Shown here: positions 9,291 to 50,260 of the stretch, piece by piece
Layout of the letters: the number at the start of each line of letters is the position of its first letter
How positions within the stretch are numbered: the stretch's first letter is position 1
Translations under genes and position numbers: made by a program
From: Squalus acanthias
Taxonomy: Eukaryota
Length of the DNA: 64,000 nt
Direction of reading: 5' to 3'
Assembly (NCBI GenBank): GCA_030390025.1
Contig: CM059431.1
Span: 105,960,001 to 106,024,000, forward strand
Notes under the pieces: generated by a model
Told to the model about the DNA's origin: nothing
Databases searched by the model: none
What the model saw: the letters and a program-made list of their open reading frames with translations, nothing else

Positions 9291-9364
9291 TTATTTAGCG
9301 CCTTTAACATAGTAAAACGTCACAAGGCGCTGCACAGCAGTGTTATAAGATGAAAATTTGAATC

Positions 9365-10018
9365 TGTGTGAGTGTGTCTGTGTGTGTGTGAGTGTGCGCG
9401 AGAGTGTGAGTGTGTCTCTGTGTGTGTGTGAGTGTGTGTGAGTGTGTGTGAGCGTGTGTGTGAGCGTGTGTGTGAGAGAGAGTGTGAGAGTGAGTGTGTG
9501 TGTGTGTGTGTGTGTGTGAGTGTGTGTGCGTGAGAGAGAGAGTGTGTGAGTGAATGTGTGTCTGTGCGTGTGTGTCTGTGAGTGTGTGTGTGTGTGTGAG
9601 TGTGTGTCTGTGTGAGTGTGTGTGAGTGAGAGTGAGAGTGAGAGTGAGTGTGTGTGTGAGTGTGTGAGTGTGAGTGTGTGTCTGTGTGAGTGTGTGTGTG
9701 AGAGTGTGTGTGTGTGAGAGTGTGAGTGTGTGTGTGTGACTGTGTGTGTGTGAGAGTGAGTGAGTGTGTGTGTGTGTGTGTGTGAGTGTGTGTCTGTGAG
9801 TGTGTGTGAGTGAGAGTGAGTGAGAGTGTGTGAGAGTGCGTGAGTGTGTGAGTGTGTGTGTGAGTGTGTGTCTGTGTGAGTGTGTGTGTGAGAGTGTGTG
9901 TGTGTGAGAGAGTGTGAGTGTGTGTGTGTGACTGTGTGTGTGTGAGAGTGAGTGAGTGTGTGTGTGTGTGAGTGTGTGTGTGTGTGAGCATGTGTGTGTG
10001 TGTGTGTGTGTGTGTGTC
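9365..10018. repeat. Compound (TG)n/(TGAG)n microsatellite
   Basis: About 650 bp of interrupted TG/AG dinucleotides. Confidence 0.98.
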
Positions 10019-10940
10019 TACTTGCAGTTCGGAGTCTGTGCCCATAAAGAAGCAGAAGGTTTGGAGTCATGTAAATAAATTATCAATCCACGTACCAGTA
10101 GATACACATAGGAAATTAAGTCTTCCAATAACAACTAATTGATGTTTGGTCATCACTAAACAGGAAGCTGAACACAGTTTTAATAATCAAAAGCTACTTA
10201 AGTTCTGCTGCATAGAGGCTTTTTTTTTTTTTACTGTGCTTAAACCAAAGCACAATGTTACACCACTCAAAGCCTGTCAGTAAGACAAAAGTACCTCAAT
10301 TTTATGATAATATATTCACTAACCTCTTAATTCTTCTATTATTCTGCTTTGGAAACCGACTGCCTTATAATACCCTCCTGTGAGTCATGTTCACTATTAT
10401 CTGGAGTGAGCAAATTACAATATCCTCTCCCAGTCTCCAGTTCGGGTCATTTCAGCTCTACTTATAGATGTCATTAATGCAAGGTTCTCGTTTTACCGAG
10501 GCCATCGCATATAATTCTTTGTTTAAAATTTGGATGGTTGGGAACAATTATCAAGGCTGCAAAGATGAAAGGGGTCCAATAACATTCACAAACCTCTCGA
10601 GCCATGCTGGAGTATCTCTTGTAGTCATTTCAAATGGCATGAATCTTTCCGATCATATCTCTAGAGTTGGTCTAAAAGTGATTAACACCACTGTAATGGC
10701 AGCCACCCCCGCCCCAAGCATGACCTCTACATTCCACAATGGATTGCAGAGATAGCACCAAAATCTGGCTTCGTGTTCTGTAATCCAGCAGAACAGAGTC
10801 CAGCTTTCAGAAACCAAGGCCGCATACAATCAATCCTTCATTTATCCTTAAACTGATCGTAAGAGGTCAGATTTTAAATGGGCTTCTCTGTGAGGGAACT
10901 GCAGACATGTCTCGTCTTAGGTCAGCAGTAAACACACAGA

Positions 10941-34631: not shown

Positions 34632-34834
34632 TATCTGGATTTTTTTTTTAATGAATCACTTTTATCTCTGGGGCCTACCTTTGAAACCATCCCAAATTGC
34701 AGTCATTGATGCCATTTCTGTGGGGATGACGTGGATATTCCATCCAACTCACATCAGACCATCAGGAGAAACCCCCGCAGAAATGACTGGCGCCCATGTC
34801 TGATTCAACGTTACATATTTAGTTGGGTCAGACG

Positions 34835-34920
34835 AGCCAGGGAGTGGCCGATGTCTGCTGTTCCACGATCAAAGAGACCAGTGCCATAAAAACTACAACA
34901 ATCTAACCAAGGCAGGTAAG
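34835..34920 (+). pseudogene. Harbinger Myb/SANT ORF remnant
   Basis: VPRS/RDQCHKNYNNLTKAGK (one frameshift) followed by donor gtaagc; resembles SANT helix 3 RTxxQCRKRFNDL. Confidence 0.5.
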
Positions 34921-35529
34921 GTAAGCATTCTCTGGGCTTCAATTCAGATCTCAGAATTCTATTATGTAAAAAAGTTGTCTGCTGTTTTTTGAAAGTCTGG
35001 TTTCAGCTGGAGATGAGAGTTGTCCTTCTATTTCAATGCTCGTAGAGTGGGGGAGGTTAAGTGCTTTCAAGGTGAGGTCTGCTTATTTGCTCAAGGCAGA
35101 ACCAAAAGGCAAGTAAGGCGTAGAAGACTGTTGCCCTGGGGCACGATCTTTTCAAAGTGCGCAACTGATGAACTTGGCAGCTTCAGTTTCTATGGCCATG
35201 GTCCCTGCTGAGAAGCAGGAAGGCAGCAGATCCCAGGCCTACTTCTCTTCTGCAGCCCCAGGCTATGCGCCAGAAGCACAAGCATTGGAGGACCTGGTCG
35301 CTGAGATTGAGACTCCAATGACGTAGCCAGTAGCTGCCCCATCACCCGAGGCCGCTGCCAGTAGTCACATGACACCTGTTCTCCAGGTCCCCTAGGACCC
35401 ACTTCCTAACTCCCTGATCCTGACCAACATGTGGGAGGGAGAGGCCATGCCCTAGGAGAAGGGCGCAGGTTCACAAATGACAAGCCACTCCTCCTGCTCA
35501 GTTTCTTCCTCATGATCCATCTGTCAGGT

Positions 35530-35830
35530 ACGCTTCGGACTGTACAAGCATAATACCTTCACTGTCAATGACAAGGCCCTGTGGGAGGAAGGCCGTGGCT
35601 TCAAGTCTTCAAGGAACATCTTGCAGAGGTGCCCAATCGCTTCCTTGGTTAAGTGCACTCTGAGCATGCACAGCTCCTCCCATAGTGCCTTGAATGACAT
35701 TTGATCCTTGTACACTCTCTACGAGGGGGTAGTAGCAAGATTTGTTCAGTCTCCAGCCTTGATATAGCTCCATCTGCTCCTCCTCCAGGTTGTCCATGAG
35801 AATCAGGAAGAGGGGAATGGCCAGTCAATA
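35530..35830 (-). pseudogene. Harbinger (HARBI1-like) transposase N-terminal remnant
   Basis: YKDQMSFKALWEELCMLRVHLTKEAIGHLCKMFLEDLKP...RALSLTVKVL resembles the N-terminal helical region of Harbinger transposases; frameshifted and truncated. Confidence 0.6.
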
Positions 35831-41219: not shown

Positions 41220-41520
41220 TCCCTCTGAGAACTCTGCGTTCCTCCAACTCTGGCATCTTGTGCATCCCCTACTTCTTTTGCCCCACCATTGGCAACCGAG
41301 CCTTCAGCCGGCTAGATCCTAAGCTCTGGAATTCCCTTCCCAAACCTCTCCACCCTCCTTTAAGATGCTGCTTAAAACCTACCTCTTTGACCAAGCTTTT
41401 GGTCGCCTGTCCGAATGTCTCCTTCTTTGGCTCGGTGTGAATTCTTGTCTGATTCCACTCCTGTGAAGCACGTTGGGATGTTTTACTACATTAAAGGCGC
41501 TATACAAATACAAGTTGTTG
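41220..41520 (+). mobile_element. L2-type 3' fragment
   Basis: TIGNRAFSRLDPKLWNSLP. Confidence 0.8.
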
Positions 41521-41927
41521 TATTGTTGTTGAATATTGCAGGAATACTATCTCCTAATCCTTCAACCCGAATGACAAATGGTCTGATACATACTGCCACA
41601 AGTCTACCAGAGGTGCACGTCAATACATCAACTGCATTACCAGCCATCGAGATATACATAACAAAACTGGAGATCTAAAGTATTCCTTTAAAAAAAACTG
41701 AAATGATAAAATATCTACTTAATTAGCTCATATGGCATTCCCACCTAGTCCTATCCCCATGCTGGCAATTATATTCCCATGGCCACCATTACCTGTTCCT
41801 ACATTCTCACGTTACTACAACTGTAGTGCTTAAAACAATCTCTAGAGTCATCAGTTACAAATTTTTGAGATCCAATTGCACCTTGCATCAAGGATATATT
41901 ATCTCTTTTTTTGTGTATGTATGTTTC

Positions 41928-42123: not shown

Positions 42124-42407
42124 GCAAAAAAAGCTGGATGCTGGCTGCACTTGCATCAGGCTGAATTGCGTATCCCATGCTAAACCTTTTAACCACGGTC
42201 TCAAAATCTACCACATTAACCAGTTATTAGGAAGCAATCTATTCTCATCAGGAATTAGTGGAACTGAAGTCTTTCCTCAGGTGCAGAGTTTATATTGCAC
42301 CAAGCAGTGCTAAATTGGGTCTTTTTAATAGTGATGGGAACAGTCACAGCCAGTCTGCTTGCTGCCATCAACTGTTAAGCTGCTGGAGAAGTGGTGCTGT
42401 GCACTTG

Positions 42408-42925
42408 CATAGAAGTTACAGCATAGAAACAGGACATTCGGTCCAACTAGTCTATACCGGTGTTTATGGCCCACATGAGCCTCCTCCCTCCCTACTTCAT
42501 CTCACCCTATCAGCATATCCTTCTATTCCTTTCTCCCTCATTACTTATCTAGCCTCCCGTTCAAGGCATCTATAATATTCACCTCAACGTCTCCACATTC
42601 TCTGAGTAAAGAAGTATCTCCTGAATTCCTTATTGGATTTATTAGTGACTATCTAGTTAGTTCTATCTTCTATCTAGTTCTCATCTCCCCCACAAGCGGA
42701 AACATATTTCTCACCATCTACCCTTTCAAACCCCTTCATAATCTGAAAGATCTCTATTAGGTCACCCCTCAGCCTTCTCTTTTCCCGAGAAAAGAACCCT
42801 CTGCCTGTTCAGTCTTTCTTGATCATTATGCCCTCTCAGTTCTGGTATCATCTTTGGTAACTTTTTTTGTACCTGCTCCAGTGCCTCTGTATCTGTTTTG
42901 TAATACGGAGACCAGAACTGTATAT
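42408..42925 (-). mobile_element. CR1 LINE 3' fragment
   Basis: Homologous to 3405-4025. Confidence 0.8.
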
Positions 42926-43007
42926 GGAGACGAGAACTTGCATACTCAAATGAACTCAGGCAGCTCTGTTCAACTGCTGATGAAAACAGCTAATAGAATA
43001 GTTCTTA

Positions 43008-43468
43008 GTGTCAGCTGTGGCTCAGTTGGTAGCACACTCACCTCTGAGTCAGAAGGTTGTGGGTTCATAGTCCCACTCCAAGGACTTGAGCACATAAAGC
43101 TAGGCTGACACTCCAGTGCAGTGCTGAGGGAAAGCTGCACTGTCAGATGTGCTGTCTTTCAGATGAGATGTTAAACTGAGGCCCCGTCTGCCCTCTCAGG
43201 TGGACGTAAAAGATCCCATGGCACTATTTCGACGAAGAGCAGGGGAGTTATCCCCGGTGTCCTGGGGCAAATATTTATCCCTCAACTAACATAACATAAA
43301 CAGATTATCTGGTCATTATCACATTGCTGTTTGTGGGAGCTTGCTGTGCGCAAATTGGCTGCCGCATTTCCCACATTACAACAGTGACTACACTTCAAAA
43401 AAGTACTTCATTGGCTGTAAAGCATTTTGGGACGTCCAGTGGTCGTGAAAGACGCTGTAGAAATGCAA
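43008..43468 (+). mobile_element. DeuSINE, full length
   Basis: Homology to other copies. Confidence 0.85.
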
Positions 43469-44144
43469 CCCAAGTCGTCTTCTTAGAATGGAAAGGTGGC
43501 GTAGCATAGAGAATGAATTATTAAAAAAAATATATAATTGTTTTAAAAGCCTGCTGTACATGTGCTGGGGATAACTGTACACATCGTGTAGAACCAAGTT
43601 CTGTGCACACACACGGCAAGTCTTGCTTTGGACTATGATGGAAGACCTCCTTACTCCAACACAATGCCTACAGTATAACTGGGGCATTTAATCTGCTTCG
43701 GGGAGGTTGAAAAACCGTATTGCTTGTAACCCAGAAGAATGAAATATTTGTGCTTACAAATTTTGTATTTTAGATATACATATTTATCCAGCAAATCAAA
43801 GGCCGAGTTCTAAAATGGCTTAATTTAAACCATGTCAGAGCTATTTTGTCACTGCACTGTACGGAAAAGCATAATTTTAAAACATGCTCCTGAAAACCTA
43901 TGGCCATGAAAAATAGTGTGTCTGTGAAATGGTGCAGCCCAAAACGCATGCTTTGTTAATAATATAAATGAGGCAAGCGGCAGAGGATGAAAGACAAACA
44001 CACGAGACAGACAATTCTGGGTACCTCGGGCTCCACTGCCAAGTTGGGGCTCACGTGTGAAATTTAGACGGAATGGGAAAGAAAAGAAAACCCACCATGG
44101 GCATGAAAAGCAGTCGCAGGACAAAGAATGATTGATGCAAAATG

Positions 44145-44150
44145 TTTATT
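44145..44150 (-). terminator. Candidate polyadenylation signal of the Myb/SANT gene (second AATAAA at 44247-44252)
   Basis: AATAAA on minus strand followed by U/GU-rich sequence, about 430 nt after the stop codon. Confidence 0.5.
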
Positions 44151-44578
44151 CCACACAACACGGGAACGATGAAAGATGAAAAAATACAAAACATTCATTC
44201 CAAACATCACAGGTAGAAGGTAGAAGATAGAAAATGTATACTTTTTTTTATTTCAAACAACATTAATAATTATGGGAGTGGAAAAAGTTTACAAAGAATT
44301 CCAAACAATACAGATAGGTGGAGACAGTATTTGGATTTTAGATTACATGCATGTTAAATGACATTGTATTCAATACATAACTGTTAACCTTATATTAATA
44401 TCCATGATAAATACTTGCATGCAGTAACTATTTAAAGCTAATATGCTACTGTATAAATTAGTGGAACTGCTAACTGCTATAAAATATAAAACTTTAAATC
44501 TAACTATATAATAAGAAAGGTGAAGTAGATAAATTCAAACAGTTAACTCCATGTATATTTGTTATCCTTCTACTGATT

Positions 44579-45345
44579 TTACCAGTCACTGTCTGAAGAA
44601 TTTTGGGAGGAATCTTCAATGGACATGCTCTCTGCAGAGTCACCATCAGGATTGAGTGATACTTCAATCACTGTGTCACTGGATGCAACCACTGTGTCAC
44701 TGGATGCAACCACTGTGTCACTGGATGCAACCACTGTGTCACTGGAGGTCATTGCGGTGTCACTGGATGTAGTCACAGTGTCACTGGATGCCACCCCAAC
44801 ATTCTCCTCCGGATGCCTTTCAGTCAGCACGATGGAGGTCTGAATAGCCACATCTCGGCGCGGCAAGGTGGAAAAATGATGGAGTCTCACAAGTGTGTGC
44901 ATCGCACCAACCAGAGACATGACGTTCTGAGACAGCCGGGCCCCACGATACTGCGAAGCATTTTGCAATGTGTTTATGTCCCTGTGCATGTGGTTGAACC
45001 CACGCTGCACAGTGCTCACAAGTGTATCTAACCTTCGACATATGGGGCAAAGCTCCCCCTCCTGTGAGTTCTGGGACTGTGATGGAAAAGAGGAAGGGAC
45101 ATTTCCCATCGCCTCTGGCTGATGTGTCCCTCTTCGCTCTGATTGCTCTGAGGAGGTCGCTTTCATATAAGAGGTTGCTTTCCATTGCCCACCTGCACCA
45201 CATGAACCTTGTTGAACCTCTTCAGTTTCCACACCTTCCGTAGCCAATCCAGGTCCTTGACGCTGGGTAGACACCTTCTCCTCCTCCAAGATCACGGTGG
45301 TTTGCTGTTGCTCTGATCTCAAGGGTTTTGAAGTGCAACATTCAT
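44579..45345 (-). CDS. Myb/SANT-like domain protein, coding exon 2 (acidic low-complexity region, helical segment, 7-aa repeats, stop)
   Basis: Acceptor ctttttatctccccag; phase 1 matches exon 1; 767 nt open to TAA. Confidence 0.8.
44669..44794 (-). repeat. Coding 21-bp tandem repeat, 6 copies (consensus VASSDTV)
   Basis: Plus-strand unit cactgtgtcactggatgcaac, in frame in exon 2. Confidence 0.95.
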
Positions 45346-45601
45346 CTGGGGAGATAAAAAGACAATACTTTGGCTTAATTGATGATAGACTATGCATAGA
45401 CCGAAGGACTAGATCGCAATAAGGCTTTGCAAGAATTTTGAGCACAAGGAAGCTGGCAATTCATTATAGAGCAAGAACATTTACATATGCTTTGAGGGAC
45501 TTGCATACATAATCACTGCAATGCATGCTTAATGATAATAGCTGCGACTGTAATATCTGAGGTAAGCAATGATGGGTTTGACAAAACAATGCAACACTCA
45601 C

Positions 45602-45995
45602 CAGAATCACTGGAGTCAGAGGACGCATCAGGTCCGTGTTCCACAAGGTGGACTATCGGGGTCACTTTTTCTTCCTCCCATGTTAGGACTTTGTCTTTTG
45701 CCACAGCTGTATGTTGAACTGTACCTTTCTTTTTGTTAAAAACGACTTTTTGCCGAGCACCAAGTCTCAAGTCAATGATGCGCTTTCGACAGTCCTCAGC
45801 TGTCCGTGCTACTTTGGAAACTTTGTTGACTTTTGCGGCAATAAGGTTCCAGCCACGTCGATGACCCTCACTAGTGGGCATTTTGGGTCTCGTGGCCAGG
45901 AATATTCTTTGTAATTTTGTGAATTGTTTCACAAGCATGCGTATAGCCAACGTGGAGAATTTAGGCTTCCGCCGTTTGGCTACGGTGGACGCCAT
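45602..45995 (-). CDS. Myb/SANT-like domain protein (Harbinger ORF2 / NAIF1 / MSANTD-like), coding exon 1
   Basis: Kozak aaaATGG; RKPKFS..MLV..W NLIAAKVN..RTAEDCRKRIIDL..LTWEEEKV; donor CTG|gtgagt; 256-nt GT-AG intron; joined CDS 1161 nt = 386 aa. Confidence 0.85.
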
Positions 45996-46704
45996 TTTCG
46001 TCTGTTTTCCGCCTGTGCGGAGTGGAAAGAAAAATCATTTGCAAAGGTCAAGTCAAGTTCCTTCTGGAAGTTAAGGTGCTAATTGTCAATTATTGCAGTT
46101 GACTTCTGCTTCCATTTTCCACACCAGTCATCCTTGTGGCTTCTGAATGGCATTGCCAATTTAATGTTAAATTAATGACAAAATATGGCCAGTTTTGTAT
46201 TAGGAATTTGCGGCAACCAGGAACTGTATCTGTATCTCCAAAGCACATTATGCTTAATGCCCTTATAAGCGGCAGAAAAAGAAGACTTTCATCCTTCCAG
46301 TTCAGGCTGTGGTCAAACCCAGGCTCCAGAAGGAACTGGATAGTCTGATAACCCAATGTAGCATCCAACTCAAATTATTATATTTGATAATATTTTGTTT
46401 CAAAAAATCATTCACAGAAAAACAATGACAACTTATATTTATATAACACCTTTAACTTAGTAAAACGTCCCAAGGTGATTATTATTTAAAAAGTATCGCC
46501 ATTGTATAAACCTTAATCTTCTTCACTTGCGCATGTGCCAGGTGACATTACTATGAGAGTCAGAAGATAATAACTGAGATGGATAACATATTTCTTAATG
46601 TTCATTGATTGGGTTTTCAATCACTGCTTAAGTTTTCTGTTCTTGTGGGATGTTTTGGAAAAGGGCACATTGTACTGTTTCCTGATGTGTAAAGTAACAG
46701 AATG

Positions 46705-47080
46705 CTTTGAAACATACAAAATCTTTACAGGGCTTGAGAGGGTAGGTGCAGGGAGGATGTTTCCCCTGGCTGGGGAATCTAGAACCAGAGGCCACAGTCT
46801 CAGAATAAGGGGTCGGCCATTTTAGGACTGAGATGAGGAGAAATGTCTTCATTCAGAGGGTGGTGAATCTTTGCAATTCTCTACCCCAGAGGGCTGTGGA
46901 GGCTCAGTCGTTGAGTGTATTCAAGCCAGAGATCGATAGATGTTTGAATATTAAGGAAATCAAGGGATAGTGCAGGAAAGTGGAGATGAGGTAGAAGTTC
47001 AGCCATGACCTTATTGAATGACGGAGCAGGCTCGAAGGGCCAAACGGCCTACTCCTGCTCCTATTTCTTATGTTCTTATG
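46705..47080 (+). mobile_element. CR1 LINE 3' fragment
   Basis: ETYKIFTGLERV...GESRTRGHSL. Confidence 0.85.
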
Positions 47081-47220
47081 AACTCATGAGTCATTACATC
47101 ACACTGCCCGTGACGTAAATTGGAGCCAGCTTAGTGCTTGCGTTCATTTTAAATCGCTATATTGGACCACTATTGTCTGCAGTGGCATTTTATACAGCGA
47201 CTGTATCATTTTAACATAGT

Positions 47221-47960
47221 GGCCCGGATTTGCGGTGGTAACGCAGCAAAACTGTCAGCGTTTGCCGTCATTACACCTCCAAAACTGACCGTAACTTCAG
47301 GGTTTAGCGCATGCGCAGATAAACGCGGAAATCCTGAAGTTGTGGTCAGTCATTCCCTGTTCCACCACAGGCTGCGCTGTGGAATCCCCATAGCCGGCAA
47401 TCAGTGAAATCACTTGAACTGATGAAAACTTCCCCTTTTCCGCTCTAATATCACTGATAAAAATCACCATAAAAAGTTAAGCCTTGTTCAATGAGCTGTA
47501 CCTGTGATTTTAACAGCGTTCTGAGTAATAACTGTTGCTGACCAACCGTTCTGGCCCTGAAAAGCTAATTTTATATTTGTGGAATGTCAAATTTCTCCCT
47601 TATGATAAAAATTACTAGATTTTGTAAATAATAAAAAAAATGTTTTTAATATTTCAGTTTTACCTTAACTCCATGTGTATGTCCCAATCTTTATTTCACT
47701 GTGTAAAAAATTTTTTTAAATGATAAAAGCTGCTTCTTATTTCCTGGTTTGTTGTCTGTGAGAATTCTTCAATGAGATTGGCTGCTTAGCCAGCCAGATG
47801 ACATCACTGCTGCCGAACGCTGGAGATCCCCAACACACAGCGCTACAAACAAATTAATGTTGAGAAAGCGAAATTTTCTGCCACAGAGATCGCAAGATCT
47901 TTGTAGGCAGCTTTCTTCGAGGTCAGGGGCAATCGCCGTCGCTTCACCACTAACTGCCAA
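47221..47960. mobile_element. Harbinger-type MITE, same family as 18246-19016, right end decayed
   Basis: Left TIR ggcccggatttgcgg and collinear interior homology. Confidence 0.75.
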
Positions 47961-48046
47961 TGTCATTCTATACAGTGAGCCAAAGAAATTCGGCTTTAAA
48001 TTTGGTTCCACCTTTGGGTAGCTAATTCCAGTACATTAACTGTTTA

Positions 48047-48472
48047 CAACAACAACAACAGCATGTATTTATATAGCACCTTTAATGTAGGAAAATATCC
48101 CAAGGCGCTTCACAGGAGTATTATCAAACAAAATTTGACACCGAGCCACACAAGCAGATATTAGGACAGGTGCTTGATCAAAGGGGTAGGTTTTAAGGAT
48201 CATCGTCAAGGTGGAGAGAGAGGTAGAGAGGCGGAGAGGCTTAGGGAGGGAATTCCGGAGCTTAGGACCCAGGCAGCTAAAGCCACGGCTGCCAATGGTA
48301 GAGCGATGAAAATTGGGGATGTGCGGAGGTCAGAATTGGAGGAGCGCAGAGATCTCGATGGGTTGTGGGGCTGGAGCAGGTTACAGAGATAGGGAGGGGC
48401 GAGGCCATGGAAGGATTTGAAAACAAGGATGAGAGTTTCAAAATTGAGGCTTTGCCCGACAGGAAGCCAATG
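48047..48472 (-). mobile_element. L2-type 3' fragment
   Basis: HWLPVGQSLNFETLILVFKSFHGLAPPYL. Confidence 0.85.
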
Positions 48473-48514
48473 TACAATCACCGAGCACAAGACTGAGGGA
48501 TCTCACATGACATA

Positions 48515-49350
48515 GGGGGTGATTTTGCCAATGGGGAGCTTTTGGAGGCGGGACTCCCACTTGTCGGGTTTCAGTCTCGCCTCCATCAACTTCTGGCCAA
48601 CCCACGCTATTTTCCCTTGATTGACCTGGTTAATCCCTCCCAGTGGGTTTAGCAGGACAATTAAGGGAAAGCCAGTTGCAGAGAACGTCAACGTATGATG
48701 TTTCATCTGTCAAAAATTTTTGACAGATGGAATTGTCATCGTTTGACAGCTCTGTGAAGCTGTCAAACAGCGACAGTCACTGTAGTTTGATGAGGTCTTG
48801 AATTCAAGACCTCATCAAACCTCTTTCCTTTACAGAAATGAGATGGTTGTTGCATTGGAGAATGCAACGGCCATCTGTCATCTCTACCGCGGAGGTGCGA
48901 GACTCTCCGCATACCCACCGACTGAAGCCTGCAGGAAGAAACAAAGGTAAGTAAACTTTTTCTAACACTTTGCACTTACCTCAGATACTCACCTCTCCAC
49001 ACTTGCACCCATCACTCACCTCCACAGCACACTTTTGCACCCCTCCGACCCCCGCAGACCCACTACTCGCCTCGGTGACCCTGGCGGGGTTTGCAGCCTT
49101 CGGGAAGCCGGCACTTGTGTGGGCAAAATGGTGATAAGCCTATTTTCTGCCAGTTAACTACCTGTTAACAGGCAGTTAAGTGGCTGTAATGCCTTCCCGC
49201 CTCCAAGGAGACGGGATCCGGCGCGGGACGGCTACCCGCCTCCTGGCAAGATGGCACGGAGGCGGGTTGGGCACCCGCCCCCAAATTCTGCCATTTTCCC
49301 GGCAATCCTGCCTCCATACCCGCCTCCCCAGGGCTGGCAAGATCGCGCCC
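48515..49350. mobile_element. Probable Harbinger-type non-autonomous element
   Basis: Imperfect TIRs gggggtgattttgcca / tggcaagatcgcgccc; TSD not clean. Confidence 0.55.
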
Positions 49351-50260
49351 TACATGTCAGCACGTCAAGATGGCAGCACCATAACAATGACAGGCAGTTC
49401 AATAAACCAGTTATTGCATTTCAATGTCCACAGTCCAATTTTTCTAAGCTTACTTCAGTTTTAAGAAGACAACCATTATCACCAAGGACCTAACTATATC
49501 CAATCCTATGGTTTCCAAGGTTACCTGATTAACCAGATAAAGCAACTGTTCTGGTCATAACAAATTAAAAACTGCATTAATCACAGGCTCTGTCATTTGA
49601 AGTTTCGGGTGCTTCTTTGAGCGGATTCCAGTTACATTATTGGTACAGCATTAGCAGAGTTCATCACTATCATCTTCTCTACATTGAGGTTATGTCAATG
49701 TTGCTTTGAAGCTGGTATATCTTTACTGCCCAACTAAATCATTCACAAGGGACTGCTTCATGTCACTGCAAAGTTGGCTGACAGAAGCAGGCTTTGCACA
49801 CGTGTGCACTGACGATACGGCATCTGCAGAGCATCAAATTGTTTCAATGTGTAGCAGACATTACTGTAATGTTTTTTTCCCCTTCAGATTATCTGACTAC
49901 AGTGAAGCCTCTCCTGGAATTTCAATTTACTGCTTTAAAGCTGTGTTGGCGTGATTGCTAAGTTAGCACGTATTTTTCCTGTTCATACAAACACACTAAC
50001 TGATCTGTGCAGTTACTAAATCATCTGCTAACGCCAACAAAATTCAAAGAAACTAGTTTGTAATAGTTAAAGGAGAAGGTATCTACTGTGGGGAAATTCT
50101 CTTTATTTCCGCACTTCTGAGATGAATAGTCCAGTGCAAGGACACGGTGTAGACACATGACAAACCAATGTTTTACAAGAGTGGACATTCTCAACCAATG
50201 TCACTGACTAGTCTAACCACAAGCCACATCTATTGTTAACTGCGTCAAGTTAGAATCATA

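What the first reader, a model, noticed from the sequence alone, without database searches (positions are those of the whole stretch)
44145..46014. Intact solo Harbinger-type Myb/SANT gene: candidate new domesticated transposon gene
Seen: strong Kozak ATG, 256-nt GT-AG intron with matching phase, 386-aa uninterrupted CDS, polyA signals, an acceptor 17 nt before the ATG, and about 3 kb free of recognisable repeats, while other transposon ORFs here are decayed. No adjacent transposase or TIRs are visible. Established: Harbinger elements encode a Myb/SANT protein, and NAIF1/MSANTD genes were domesticated from it. The sequence does not look like those conserved genes to me, and it reads through the position after helix 3 where the local remnant at 34920 has a splice donor. 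Inference: a lineage-specific co-opted DNA-binding protein, possibly able to bind the abundant Harbinger MITE ends.
Basis: partly seen in the sequence, partly recalled or inferred. Interest (0 to 1): 0.8.

Follow-up and report, generated by a model that had tools for sequence, protein, structure and literature searches.

The report
Shark-lineage solo Myb gene from transposon
An intact, single-copy, two-exon gene for a Myb/SANT-type DNA-binding protein sits here as the only survivor of an old, otherwise decayed transposon-type gene family, and it is probably a lineage-restricted co-opted gene of a kind already known in vertebrates.

Summary
On the minus strand there is a 386-aa CDS: exon 1 45995-45602, a 256-nt GT-AG intron, and exon 2 45345-44579. 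It has a strong Kozak ATG, polyA signals and an acceptor 17 nt before the ATG.

- **Domain:** exon 1 passes Pfam Myb_DNA-bind_5.
- **Copy number:** the gene is single-copy in its 3.7-Gb genome. About 20 relatives there are decayed DNA-level copies, 64-78% identical in nucleotides, with stops and frameshifts.
- **Orthologue:** an 85-89% identical 391-aa protein with the same exon junction is annotated in Heptranchias perlo. Contigs of three related organisms carry the locus together with its flanks.
- **Known genes:** it is not NAIF1, MSANTD1-4 or MYPOP. The best named hit is MYPOP at 25% identity.

The Harbinger origin is indirect. Harbinger-linked Myb ORFs of this genome are 28-36% identical, but no transposase lies beside the gene or its closest relics.

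Evidence on selection is mixed. The reading frame is kept, and a C-terminal block, modelled as one long helix, is almost invariant (3 of 86 residues changed). Overall, though, the coding sequence evolves nearly as fast as the intron and flanks. No dN/dS could be computed, and expression rests only on an indirect hint.

Verdict: probably a fast-evolving domesticated gene, a new member of a known kind.

The parts
43602..46271 (.). Single-copy stretch that holds the whole gene, between very high-copy repeats
   Evidence: Contig depth in DNA runs X4, X5 and X7 is 7-110 here, against 10^4-10^6 in 42267-43601 and 46272-49475.
46013..46014 (-). Candidate 3' splice acceptor AG, 17 nt before the ATG, which implies an upstream 5'-UTR exon
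   Evidence: The sequence is TTTTTCTTTCCACTCCGCACAG|GCGGAAAACAGACGAAA ATG. This is a motif only. The upstream exon was not found.
45602..45995 (-). Coding part of exon 1 (131 codons plus 1 nt), starting at ATG 45995
   Evidence: Translation. Kozak context aaaATGG and donor CTG|GTGAGT.
45744..45971 (-). Myb/SANT-like DNA-binding domain (residues 9-84)
   Evidence: Pfam PF13873 at E 8e-08, 32.6 bits, cut-off 21.7. In the AlphaFold2 model of the orthologue, helices 15-32, 42-59 and 66-92 have pLDDT 90-97. The best fold matches are Myb, SANT or trihelix DNA-binding domains, all at E > 0.001.
45621..45704 (-). Conserved segment after the Myb domain (residues 98-125, VAKDKVLTWEEEKVTPIVHLVEHGPDAS)
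   Evidence: Nearly invariant across the gene, P0002 and the P0003 group. Also recognisable in relics L033 and L045. The model shows a short helix at 106-114 with pLDDT 86.
45346..45601 (-). 256-nt GT-AG intron, phase 1
   Evidence: The Heptranchias protein model runs colinearly across the same junction. Homology to relics L032, L033, L034 and L045 runs through it.
44579..45345 (-). Exon 2 coding part, including the stop codon at 44579-44581
   Evidence: Translation. No Pfam family reaches its cut-off.
44819..45076 (-). Conserved C-terminal block (residues 222-307), the candidate partner-binding or self-association helix
   Evidence: 3 changes in 86 residues against Heptranchias, compared with 31 in 168 in the linker and tail (Fisher p 7e-4). 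One 59-residue helix in the model, pLDDT 86-94. Shared at 34-55% identity with relics and with a conserved elasmobranch paralogue.
44665..44795 (-). 21-nt tandem repeat, 6.2 copies, encoding SSDTVxx heptads
   Evidence: Tandem Repeats Finder. The repeat variants differ between this species and Heptranchias.
44145..44252 (-). Two AATAAA polyA signals (44252-44247 and 44150-44145). A further ATTAAA lies at 43692.
   Evidence: Motif scan.

Best explanation
This is a lineage-restricted, single-copy host gene. It descends from the Myb-like 'gene 2' type ORF of an old, now extinct DNA-transposon family of the PIF/Harbinger kind.

**Architecture.**
- An N-terminal basic patch (KRRKPK). Reading it as a nuclear localisation signal is my inference.
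- A three-helix Myb/SANT-like domain that should bind DNA.
- A long disordered acidic, Ser-rich linker.
- One long, strongly conserved C-terminal helix.
- A Ser/Asp/Thr repeat tail.

**Most likely mechanism.** It works as a DNA-binding adaptor like NAIF1 or ALP2. The Myb domain picks out a DNA motif, and the C-terminal helix holds a protein partner: itself, or a Harbinger-type nuclease.

**Shown here.** The gene anatomy, the domain, single-copy status, the decayed relatives, an orthologue with the same junction, and uneven conservation along the protein.

**Inferred.** DNA binding, the role of the helix, expression, and that selection rather than luck keeps the frame open.
For: **Gene anatomy.** The signals are complete and the 386-aa CDS is open.

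**Domain.** Myb_DNA-bind_5 scores above its cut-off in the gene (32.6 bits) and in the orthologue (24.6 bits). The three Myb helices are modelled confidently.

**Single copy.** The next best genomic match to exon 1 is 35% identical, and to exon 2 34-58% identical over short stretches.

**Relatives are wrecks.**
- 15 of the 21 non-self matches to exon 2 carry stops inside short stretches.
- In alignments to 10 relics, 56 of 62 exon indels are not multiples of three.
- The relics keep intron homology, so they are DNA-level copies and not retrocopies.

**Orthologue.** P0002 of Heptranchias perlo is 391 aa. It shows 338 identities, 47 substitutions and 7 gap columns in two in-frame indels, with the same exon junction.

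**Same locus in relatives.** Contigs of organisms B, C and D run from the gene into both flanking repeat junctions: 43442-45501, 45476-46465 and 44714-46476.

**Frame maintenance.**
- In organism C the piece 44696-45501 has 24 differences and 0 gaps, while each flank piece has 8 gaps.
- In a substitution-only simulation, 47 amino-acid changes correspond to about 70 neutral substitutions, with P(no stop) = 0.10. At 15-19% divergence, P = 0.005-0.0025.
- At the indel-to-substitution ratio seen in the relics (62 to about 449), several frameshifts would be expected. That expectation is my inference.

**Uneven constraint.** The C-terminal block has 3 changes in 86 residues, against 18 in 90 in the linker and 13 in 78 in the tail (p 7e-4 and 0.004).

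**Harbinger link.**
- The Myb exon of an intact Harbinger element (L031) is 35% identical over 92 aa, and the match starts before the ATG, covering its shared 'QTKMA' context.
- 4 of the 8 best exon-1 paralogues have a DDE_Tnp_4 fragment within 5 kb.

**Hint of splicing (inference).** In run X1, which is the same species with 0-2 differences, contigs end at 45346 and begin at 45602. Each overlaps by exactly 30 letters with a contig that spans the intron. That is the pattern of a de Bruijn bubble between spliced and unspliced forms. No intron-less copy exists in the genome.

**Literature (passages read).**
- The C-terminal part of ALP2, HDP2, NAIF1 and Ping Myb binds the nuclease (PMC7282668).
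- Harbinger Myb-like genes were domesticated repeatedly in vertebrates (PMC9392472).
Against: No dN/dS could be computed, and the proxies point to near-neutral rates.

- **Gene against 10 relics.** Divergence at codon positions 1+2 is 0.250, against 0.226 in intron and upstream DNA (p 0.24) and 0.279 at position 3 (p 0.19). Transversion rates are equal.
- **Against the P0003 group.** Exon 1 is 70% identical in amino acids. The read-through intron, translated the same way, is about 71% identical over about 48 residues. The hallmark tryptophan W49 is a cysteine there.
- **Against close relatives.** Coding-rich pieces differ by 3.0% and 4.8%, the 3' flank by 4.1% and 5.4%. By my arithmetic this gives omega of roughly 0.6-0.75.
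- **Ascertainment.** The test of ORF intactness is biased, because the gene was picked for being open.
- **Transposon origin.** No transposase, TIR or TSD ties this copy or its closest relics to Harbinger.
- **Distribution.** Only one annotated orthologue exists among 5.8 billion protein clusters. The gene is therefore either very restricted or mostly unannotated.
- **Synteny.** Wider synteny with Heptranchias could not be examined.
Confidence: 0.6

Rival explanations
1. It is a dead relic that is open by luck: the last-inserted copy of an extinct element family, not yet hit by a stop or frameshift, and without function.
For: Coding and non-coding DNA diverge at similar rates in three comparisons. 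P(no stop) is still 0.10-0.24 for 3.5-6% neutral divergence. The P0003 copy has lost a hallmark tryptophan.
Against: Two lineages keep all 386-391 codons open, with only in-frame indels. The C-terminal block is far more conserved than the rest (p 7e-4). Exon 2 has no gaps in organism C, while the flank pieces have 8 each. Every other family member found is broken. A gene model with the same intron is annotated in Heptranchias.
Confidence: 0.2
2. It is still part of a mobile element: a non-autonomous Harbinger derivative that carries only the Myb gene and could be moved in trans by the many intact transposases of this genome.
For: The genome holds very many intact DDE_Tnp_4 ORFs. All 150 scored matches are over the cut-off, and 146 of them have no stop. 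Harbinger elements normally carry such a Myb gene.
Against: The gene is single-copy, with no copy above about 78% nucleotide identity. No TIRs were found. It sits in the same flanks in three related organisms. Its exon structure differs from the Harbinger Myb genes seen here, which have their intron straight after helix 3.
Confidence: 0.05
3. It is an old host gene that did not come from a transposon, and the relics are its own duplicated pseudogenes.
For: No transposase lies next to the closest relics: 1 of 13 loci has one, and that is probably chance. A conserved elasmobranch gene shares the C-terminal block.
Against: About 20 intron-bearing copies are scattered over many chromosomes, which fits transposition better than segmental duplication. 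The domain family and the best transposase-linked relatives are Harbinger Myb ORFs. No orthologue is annotated outside one shark.
Confidence: 0.1
4. It is the shark orthologue of a known domesticated gene: NAIF1, MSANTD1-4, MYPOP or TSNARE1.
For: It has the same Pfam domain family. The exhaustive search does reach MYPOP and MYPOP-like proteins.
Against: The best named hit is MYPOP at E 3.2e-4 and 25% identity. None of the 18 hits at E <= 0.001 is named NAIF1, MSANTD or TSNARE1.
Confidence: 0.02

Closest known systems
NAIF1 (vertebrate gene domesticated from a Harbinger Myb-like gene; partner of HARBI1)
   Same: Solo gene with no adjacent transposase. N-terminal Myb/SANT-like trihelix domain, then a helical C-terminal part. 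In NAIF1 that C-terminal part is the nuclease-binding region (PMC7282668, passages; PMC9392472, sections 7 and 14).
   Different: No detectable orthology: NAIF1 is not among the 18 hits at E <= 0.001. NAIF1 dates to the base of jawed vertebrates, whereas this gene has one annotated orthologue, in a shark. No partner is known here.
MYPOP (p42POP) and the 'MYPOP-like' proteins of sharks and salamanders
   Same: The closest named relatives by sequence (E 1e-4 to 8e-4, 25-36% identity in the Myb domain). MYPOP is listed as a putative Harbinger-derived gene (PMC9392472, passage in section 13).
   Different: Similarity is confined to the Myb domain. The C-terminal block is not shared, and the two are not orthologous.
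MSANTD1-4 (Harbinger Myb-like-derived gene family)
   Same: The same kind of event: recurrent, independent domestication of Harbinger Myb-like genes that keep the trihelix (PMC9392472, abstract and sections 7 and 14).
   Different: Those genes are ancient (430-500 Myr) and reported to be under negative selection. This one is narrowly distributed and evolves fast. No MSANTD-named protein was hit.
Myb-like gene of intact Harbinger elements in this same genome (for example L031)
   Same: Myb_DNA-bind_5 domain, 35% identity over 92 aa in a match that begins upstream of the ATG, two coding exons, and a helical second exon.
   Different: The element gene lies tail to tail with a 391-aa DDE_Tnp_4 transposase, exists in very many copies, and has its intron straight after helix 3. 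Its second exon is not alignable to this gene.
Insect MADF/Myb partners co-domesticated with PIF transposases; Arabidopsis ALP2 and HDP2
   Same: Domesticated 'gene 2' proteins that can evolve fast (dN/dS up to 0.517) and bind a partner through a C-terminal region (PMC9710019 and PMC7282668, passages).
   Different: Those have an identified co-domesticated nuclease partner. None was found beside this gene.

Membership tests
Pfam PF13873 Myb_DNA-bind_5 | HMM score at or above the curated gathering cut-off (21.7 bits) | tested here: met
   Gene exon 1 scores 32.6 bits at E 8e-08 over profile positions 1-76 of 78. The orthologue P0002 scores 24.6 bits.
Pfam PF13873 Myb_DNA-bind_5 | Three-helix Myb/SANT-like fold | tested here: inconclusive
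   The AlphaFold2 model has three helices at pLDDT 90-97. The top Foldseek matches are the Sap1, NgTRF, GT-1, DNAJC2-SANT and Zeste DNA-binding domains (prob 0.75-1.0, TM by target 0.52-0.75), but none reaches E <= 0.001.
Active PIF/Harbinger element (its Myb-like gene 2) | DDE_Tnp_4 transposase gene in the same element | tested here: not met
   tblastn with four transposases at E <= 1 finds only an unrelated relic at 35554-35727, 9 kb away.
Active PIF/Harbinger element (its Myb-like gene 2) | Terminal inverted repeats and a 3-bp TSD around the unit | tested here: not met
   No convincing flanking pair. The long pairs lie in high-copy repeats, and the short ones are at chance level. The boundaries of the old element could not be defined from the relics.
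Active PIF/Harbinger element (its Myb-like gene 2) | Several closely similar copies in the genome | tested here: not met
   Single copy. The nearest relatives are 35-58% identical in amino acids and 64-78% in nucleotides.
Domesticated transposon gene (criteria as listed in PMC9710019) | No close related copies and no TIRs | tested here: met
Domesticated transposon gene (criteria as listed in PMC9710019) | Orthologues at syntenic sites in distant species | tested here: inconclusive
   Contigs of three related organisms join the gene to both flanks. A Heptranchias orthologue exists as a protein, but its neighbourhood could not be read with these tools.
Domesticated transposon gene (criteria as listed in PMC9710019) | Purifying selection (dN/dS < 1) | tested here: inconclusive
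   No orthologous DNA could be read base by base: the difference table was cut. In favour: the frame is kept and the block is conserved. Against: coding and non-coding rates are about equal.
Domesticated transposon gene (criteria as listed in PMC9710019) | Expression as a host transcript | tested here: inconclusive
   Indirect only. Contig ends fall at both splice sites with 30-letter overlaps in one run whose kind is a guess.
NAIF1 / MSANTD1-4 / MYPOP / TSNARE1 orthologue | Closest relatives are members of that gene's clade | tested here: not met
   Among the 18 hits at E <= 0.001 in 1.84 billion representatives, the only named gene is MYPOP or MYPOP-like, at 25-36% identity and E 1e-4 or weaker.

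The most novel reading that the evidence does not exclude
The gene is a fast-evolving host copy of the Harbinger cofactor that has been turned against, or harnessed for, the very large and apparently still intact Harbinger population of this genome. Its Myb domain would track transposon subterminal or MITE motifs, which would explain why it changes quickly. Its invariant C-terminal helix would hold the transposase, so the protein would titrate or misdirect the enzyme. That would make it a transposon-derived regulator of its own superfamily, caught in an arms race.
Probability: 0.1. Interest if true: 0.75.

Novelty: new member of a known kind. Interest (0 to 1): 0.42.

Why it matters
Harbinger Myb-like genes have been co-opted again and again: NAIF1, MSANTD1-4, probably MYPOP and TSNARE1, plus cases in plants and insects. 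All the vertebrate cases described so far are ancient. A young case restricted to a shark lineage, with its decayed source family still visible in the same genome, would show an early stage of that process. It would also give a natural test of which part is kept first, and here that is the C-terminal helix rather than the DNA-binding domain. The genome around it carries an unusually large set of intact Harbinger transposases, so a functional link between the two could be tested directly.

Tried and rejected
- **RNA runs.** No RNA holder was listed for the 1.9-kb stretch. The kind of run X1 is only a guess.
- **Cover in X1.** Its cover ends at 46015, with 4 loose letters, and is nearly absent from 46005-46271 and 44403-44669. 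Parts without cover say nothing.
- **Joints and differences.** The joints table showed 15 of 5,165 joints and none across the intron, so splicing was not seen directly. The difference table was cut, with 725 rows not shown. No per-site differences inside the CDS were available and no dN/dS could be made.
- **Complex prediction.** Harbinger transposase L031 was tested with residues 78-182 of the exon 2 product. The verdict was 'no answer' at score 0.02 against a mark of 0.34, and the alignments were not used. This is no evidence either way.
- **Cognate transposase.** The fragment beside relic L042 belongs to a family with at least 150 matches at 59-79% identity, so it is probably a chance neighbour. 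Relaxed tblastn found none beside the other 12 loci.
- **Limits of the old element.** All-against-all blastn of 11 relic loci gave mostly unrelated high-copy repeats.
- **ESM Atlas search with the C-terminal block.** It returned only long-helix look-alikes such as DivIC and GrpE (TM 0.5-0.6, feature scores up to 0.82) and no family.
- **Pfam on exon 2.** Nothing reached a cut-off.
- **Pfam on the local remnant ORFs.** Nothing at 34710-34992 or 35524-35718.
- **Earlier findings of this scan.** Nothing for this place or sequence. Two similar cases in other genomes came up by words and were not used.
- **Sinzelle et al. 2008.** It is not held under the ids I tried. It is cited only through what PMC9392472, PMC7282668 and PMC9710019 say of it.
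- **Prior publication.** Three literature searches found no paper on a shark-specific Harbinger Myb-derived gene. Supplements were not opened.
Full report
**1. What is there**

The gene lies on the minus strand.

- The ATG is at 45995, in the context aaaATGG.
- The coding part of exon 1 runs to 45602 and ends in CTG|GTGAGT.
- A 256-nt intron (45601-45346) ends in a pyrimidine tract and CAG.
- Exon 2 runs from 45345 to the stop at 44581-44579.
- A script that joined the exons by coordinates gave 1161 nt, which is 386 codons and one terminal stop.
- AATAAA lies 327 and 429 nt after the stop. A good acceptor ends 17 nt before the ATG.
- A 21-nt tandem repeat (44665-44795) encodes SSDTVxx heptads near the C-terminus.
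- Contig depth in three DNA runs marks 43602-46271 as single-copy, between very high-copy repeats.

The rest of the window is mostly LINE debris. Of 15 ORFs scanned, 3 match RVT_1 and 12 match nothing. A decayed Harbinger lies at about 34.7-35.7 kb, with a transposase relic at 35554-35727.

**2. What the protein looks like**

Residues 9-84 pass Pfam Myb_DNA-bind_5 at 32.6 bits against a cut-off of 21.7. Exon 2 matches no family.

I made an AlphaFold2 model of the full-length orthologue from a 17-row alignment. Mean pLDDT is 62. It shows:

- three confident helices (15-32, 42-59, 66-92; pLDDT 90-97);
- a short helix at 106-114;
- disorder from 117 to about 230;
- one uninterrupted helix at 238-296 (pLDDT 86-94);
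- a disordered tail.

The best Foldseek matches are Myb, SANT or trihelix DNA-binding domains: Sap1, NgTRF, GT-1, DNAJC2 SANT and Zeste. None reaches E <= 0.001. Atlas look-alikes of the C-terminal part are long-helix proteins with no family name.

**3. Copy number and relatives in the same genome**

The window's assembly is 3.7 Gb.

- Exon 1 has 75 matches at E <= 0.001. One is the gene itself, and the next best is 35% identical.
- Exon 2 has 22 matches. One is the gene itself, and 15 of the other 21 have stops inside short stretches.

One set of loci shares motifs that are specific to this gene and lie beyond the Myb domain: FNKK..TVQHT, HLVEHGPD.S and FNHMHRD..LQN..QY.GAQLSQ. The loci are L032-L034, L039 and L041-L047. 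They are 64-78% identical to the gene in DNA. In L032, L033, L034 and L045 the homology runs through the intron, and in L039 it reaches 112 nt upstream of the ATG. These are therefore old DNA-level copies, not retrocopies. The gene is the one intact member of a decayed, dispersed family.

**4. Is it Harbinger?**

The genome is full of intact Harbinger transposase ORFs. All 150 scored matches to DDE_Tnp_4 are over the cut-off. 146 have no stop, and most have open frames of 384-392 aa. The first look gave 63,886 candidates.

One element, L031, has the transposase tail to tail with a two-exon Myb_DNA-bind_5 gene. That Myb exon is 35% identical to the gene over 92 aa, in a match that begins before the ATG and includes its shared 'QTKMA' context.

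Of the 8 best exon-1 paralogues, 4 have a transposase fragment within 5 kb. Three further weak Myb hits lie about 2 kb from transposase hits. The gene's own relic family is different. Among the 13 loci with no strong transposase hit, only L042 showed a fragment when re-examined. That fragment's family is so abundant that it is probably a chance neighbour.

The Harbinger Myb genes seen here have their intron straight after helix 3. This gene reads on for 47 more codons before its intron.

The Harbinger label is therefore reasonable but indirect.

**5. Orthologues**

The word-indexed searches found very little.

- Exon 2 found one protein, P0002, a 391-aa 'uncharacterized protein' of Heptranchias perlo.
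- Exon 1 found only P0003.
- The C-terminal block found only P0002 itself.

P0002 shows 338 identities, 47 substitutions and 7 gap columns against the gene. The gaps are two in-frame indels. The alignment is colinear across the exon junction.

P0003 and its two cluster mates are unnamed. They are exon 1 read on into the intron, 70% identical, with W49 replaced by C.

Contigs of three related organisms, 3-5% divergent, cover the gene together with both repeat junctions. The locus is therefore inherited and not re-inserted.

The exhaustive phmmer search over 1.84 billion representatives gave 18 hits at E <= 0.001. They are shark, ray and salamander 'uncharacterized' or 'MYPOP-like' proteins, and one bat MYPOP at 25% identity. 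None is NAIF1, MSANTD or TSNARE1.

**6. Selection: the weak point**

In favour:

- Changes against Heptranchias are very uneven. The counts are 9 in 95 in the Myb domain, 4 in 36 in residues 96-131, 18 in 90 plus 6 gap columns in the linker, 3 in 86 in the C-terminal block, and 13 in 78 plus 1 gap column in the tail. The block differs from linker plus tail at p 7e-4, and from all the rest at p 0.004.
- The frame is kept in two lineages.
- In organism C, the exon 2 piece has 24 differences and no gap. Each flank piece has 8 gaps.
- In the relics, 56 of 62 exon indels break the frame.
- In the simulation, P(no stop) is 0.10 at the divergence that gives 47 amino-acid changes, and 0.005-0.0025 at 15-19%.

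Against:

- Between the gene and 10 relics, codon positions 1+2 diverge by 0.250, intron and upstream DNA by 0.226, and position 3 by 0.279. None of these differences is significant.
- Exon 1 and the intron are about equally diverged from the P0003 group.
- Coding-rich pieces differ from close relatives by 3.0% and 4.8%, against 4.1% and 5.4% in the flank.

My reading, which is an inference, is that overall omega is about 0.6-0.75. The linker and tail would be nearly free, the Myb domain intermediate, and the helix strongly constrained. This is within the range reported for insect MADF partners, where dN/dS reaches 0.517 (PMC9710019, passage).

**7. Expression**

No RNA run is on record for this stretch (see Tried and rejected).

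One observation is worth telling. In run X1, which has 0-2 differences and is therefore the same species, one contig spans the whole intron (45317-45631). Its neighbours end at 45346 and start at 45602. These are the two exon borders, allowing for one shared G. Each overlap is exactly 30 letters.

That is how a k=31 graph breaks where spliced and unspliced forms coexist, and the genome has no intron-less copy. This is an inference and not a seen junction.

**8. Mechanism and place among known things**

From the passages I read:

- The Harbinger3_DR Myb-like protein binds a 9-bp subterminal motif and brings the transposase into the nucleus (PMC9710019).
- NAIF1 binds DNA, HARBI1 and the transposase (PMC9392472, section 14).
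- The C-terminal part of ALP2, HDP2, NAIF1 and Ping Myb is the nuclease-binding part (PMC7282668).

The most likely working of this gene is the same adaptor logic. The Myb domain sits on DNA, and the conserved helix sits on a partner or on itself.

[quoted passage not shown] It lists MYPOP, ZSCAN20, PRDM11 and TSNARE1 as further candidates. A case restricted to a shark lineage is a new member of that known kind.

Three literature searches found no description of it.

**9. Verdict**

| Reading | Probability |
|---|---|
| Real, probably functional, fast-evolving domesticated gene | about 0.6 |
| Relic that is open by luck | about 0.2 |
| Other readings together | the remainder |

Interest is moderate. 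The kind is known and selection is not yet shown. The visible source family, the inverted pattern of constraint (helix more conserved than DNA-binding domain) and the Harbinger-rich genome make it a useful case.

Noticed in passing
Whole genome G000 (for example L031 = C21:2174500-2183500): There is a very large population of intact Harbinger transposase ORFs. All 150 scored DDE_Tnp_4 matches have E <= 1e-38, 146 have no stop, and most have open frames of 384-392 aa. The first look gave 63,886 candidates. A published survey did not detect Harbinger in the elephant shark and asked for other cartilaginous fishes to be examined (PMC9179366, passages).
   Followed up: partly
L022 / L040 (G000:C10:134291302-134291676, minus strand; open frame 351 aa): This is an intact paralogue that shares only the C-terminal helical block (34% identity over 122 aa). 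It has no Pfam Myb domain and is almost unchanged between whale shark, bamboo shark and an electric ray (P0006, P0023, P0011, all 'uncharacterized'). It may be an older co-option of the same kind of C-terminal module.
   Followed up: partly
window 34700-35730: A decayed Harbinger lies here. A frameshifted Myb remnant on the + strand (about 34780-34930) has a GTAAGT donor straight after helix 3. A transposase relic on the - strand (35554-35727) is 48% identical to the intact transposase over 58 aa and contains a stop.
   Followed up: partly
P0003, P0021, P0022 (unnamed contigs of other runs): These are exon 1 orthologues, 70% identical, read through into the intron. The conserved tryptophan of helix 2 is replaced by cysteine. 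The first 11 intron-encoded residues are identical to the window, while the first 22 residues of the protein are about half changed.
   Followed up: partly
P0007 / P0024 (Ambystoma mexicanum, 919-920 aa): A salamander protein joins a KRAB box to two Myb_DNA-bind_5 domains. It is a KRAB fusion with a Harbinger-type Myb domain.
   Followed up: no
window 41263-41521 and 48055-48321: Inverted copies, about 260 nt long and 77-83% complementary, lie 6.5 kb apart and bracket the gene region. By contig depth they are very high-copy repeats of a SINE or LINE-tail type, not element ends.
   Followed up: partly
window 9291-10079: A long imperfect CA-rich microsatellite reads as Thr-His repeats in three frames of the minus strand. 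It produces the window's other long 'ORFs' of 224-262 aa.
   Followed up: no
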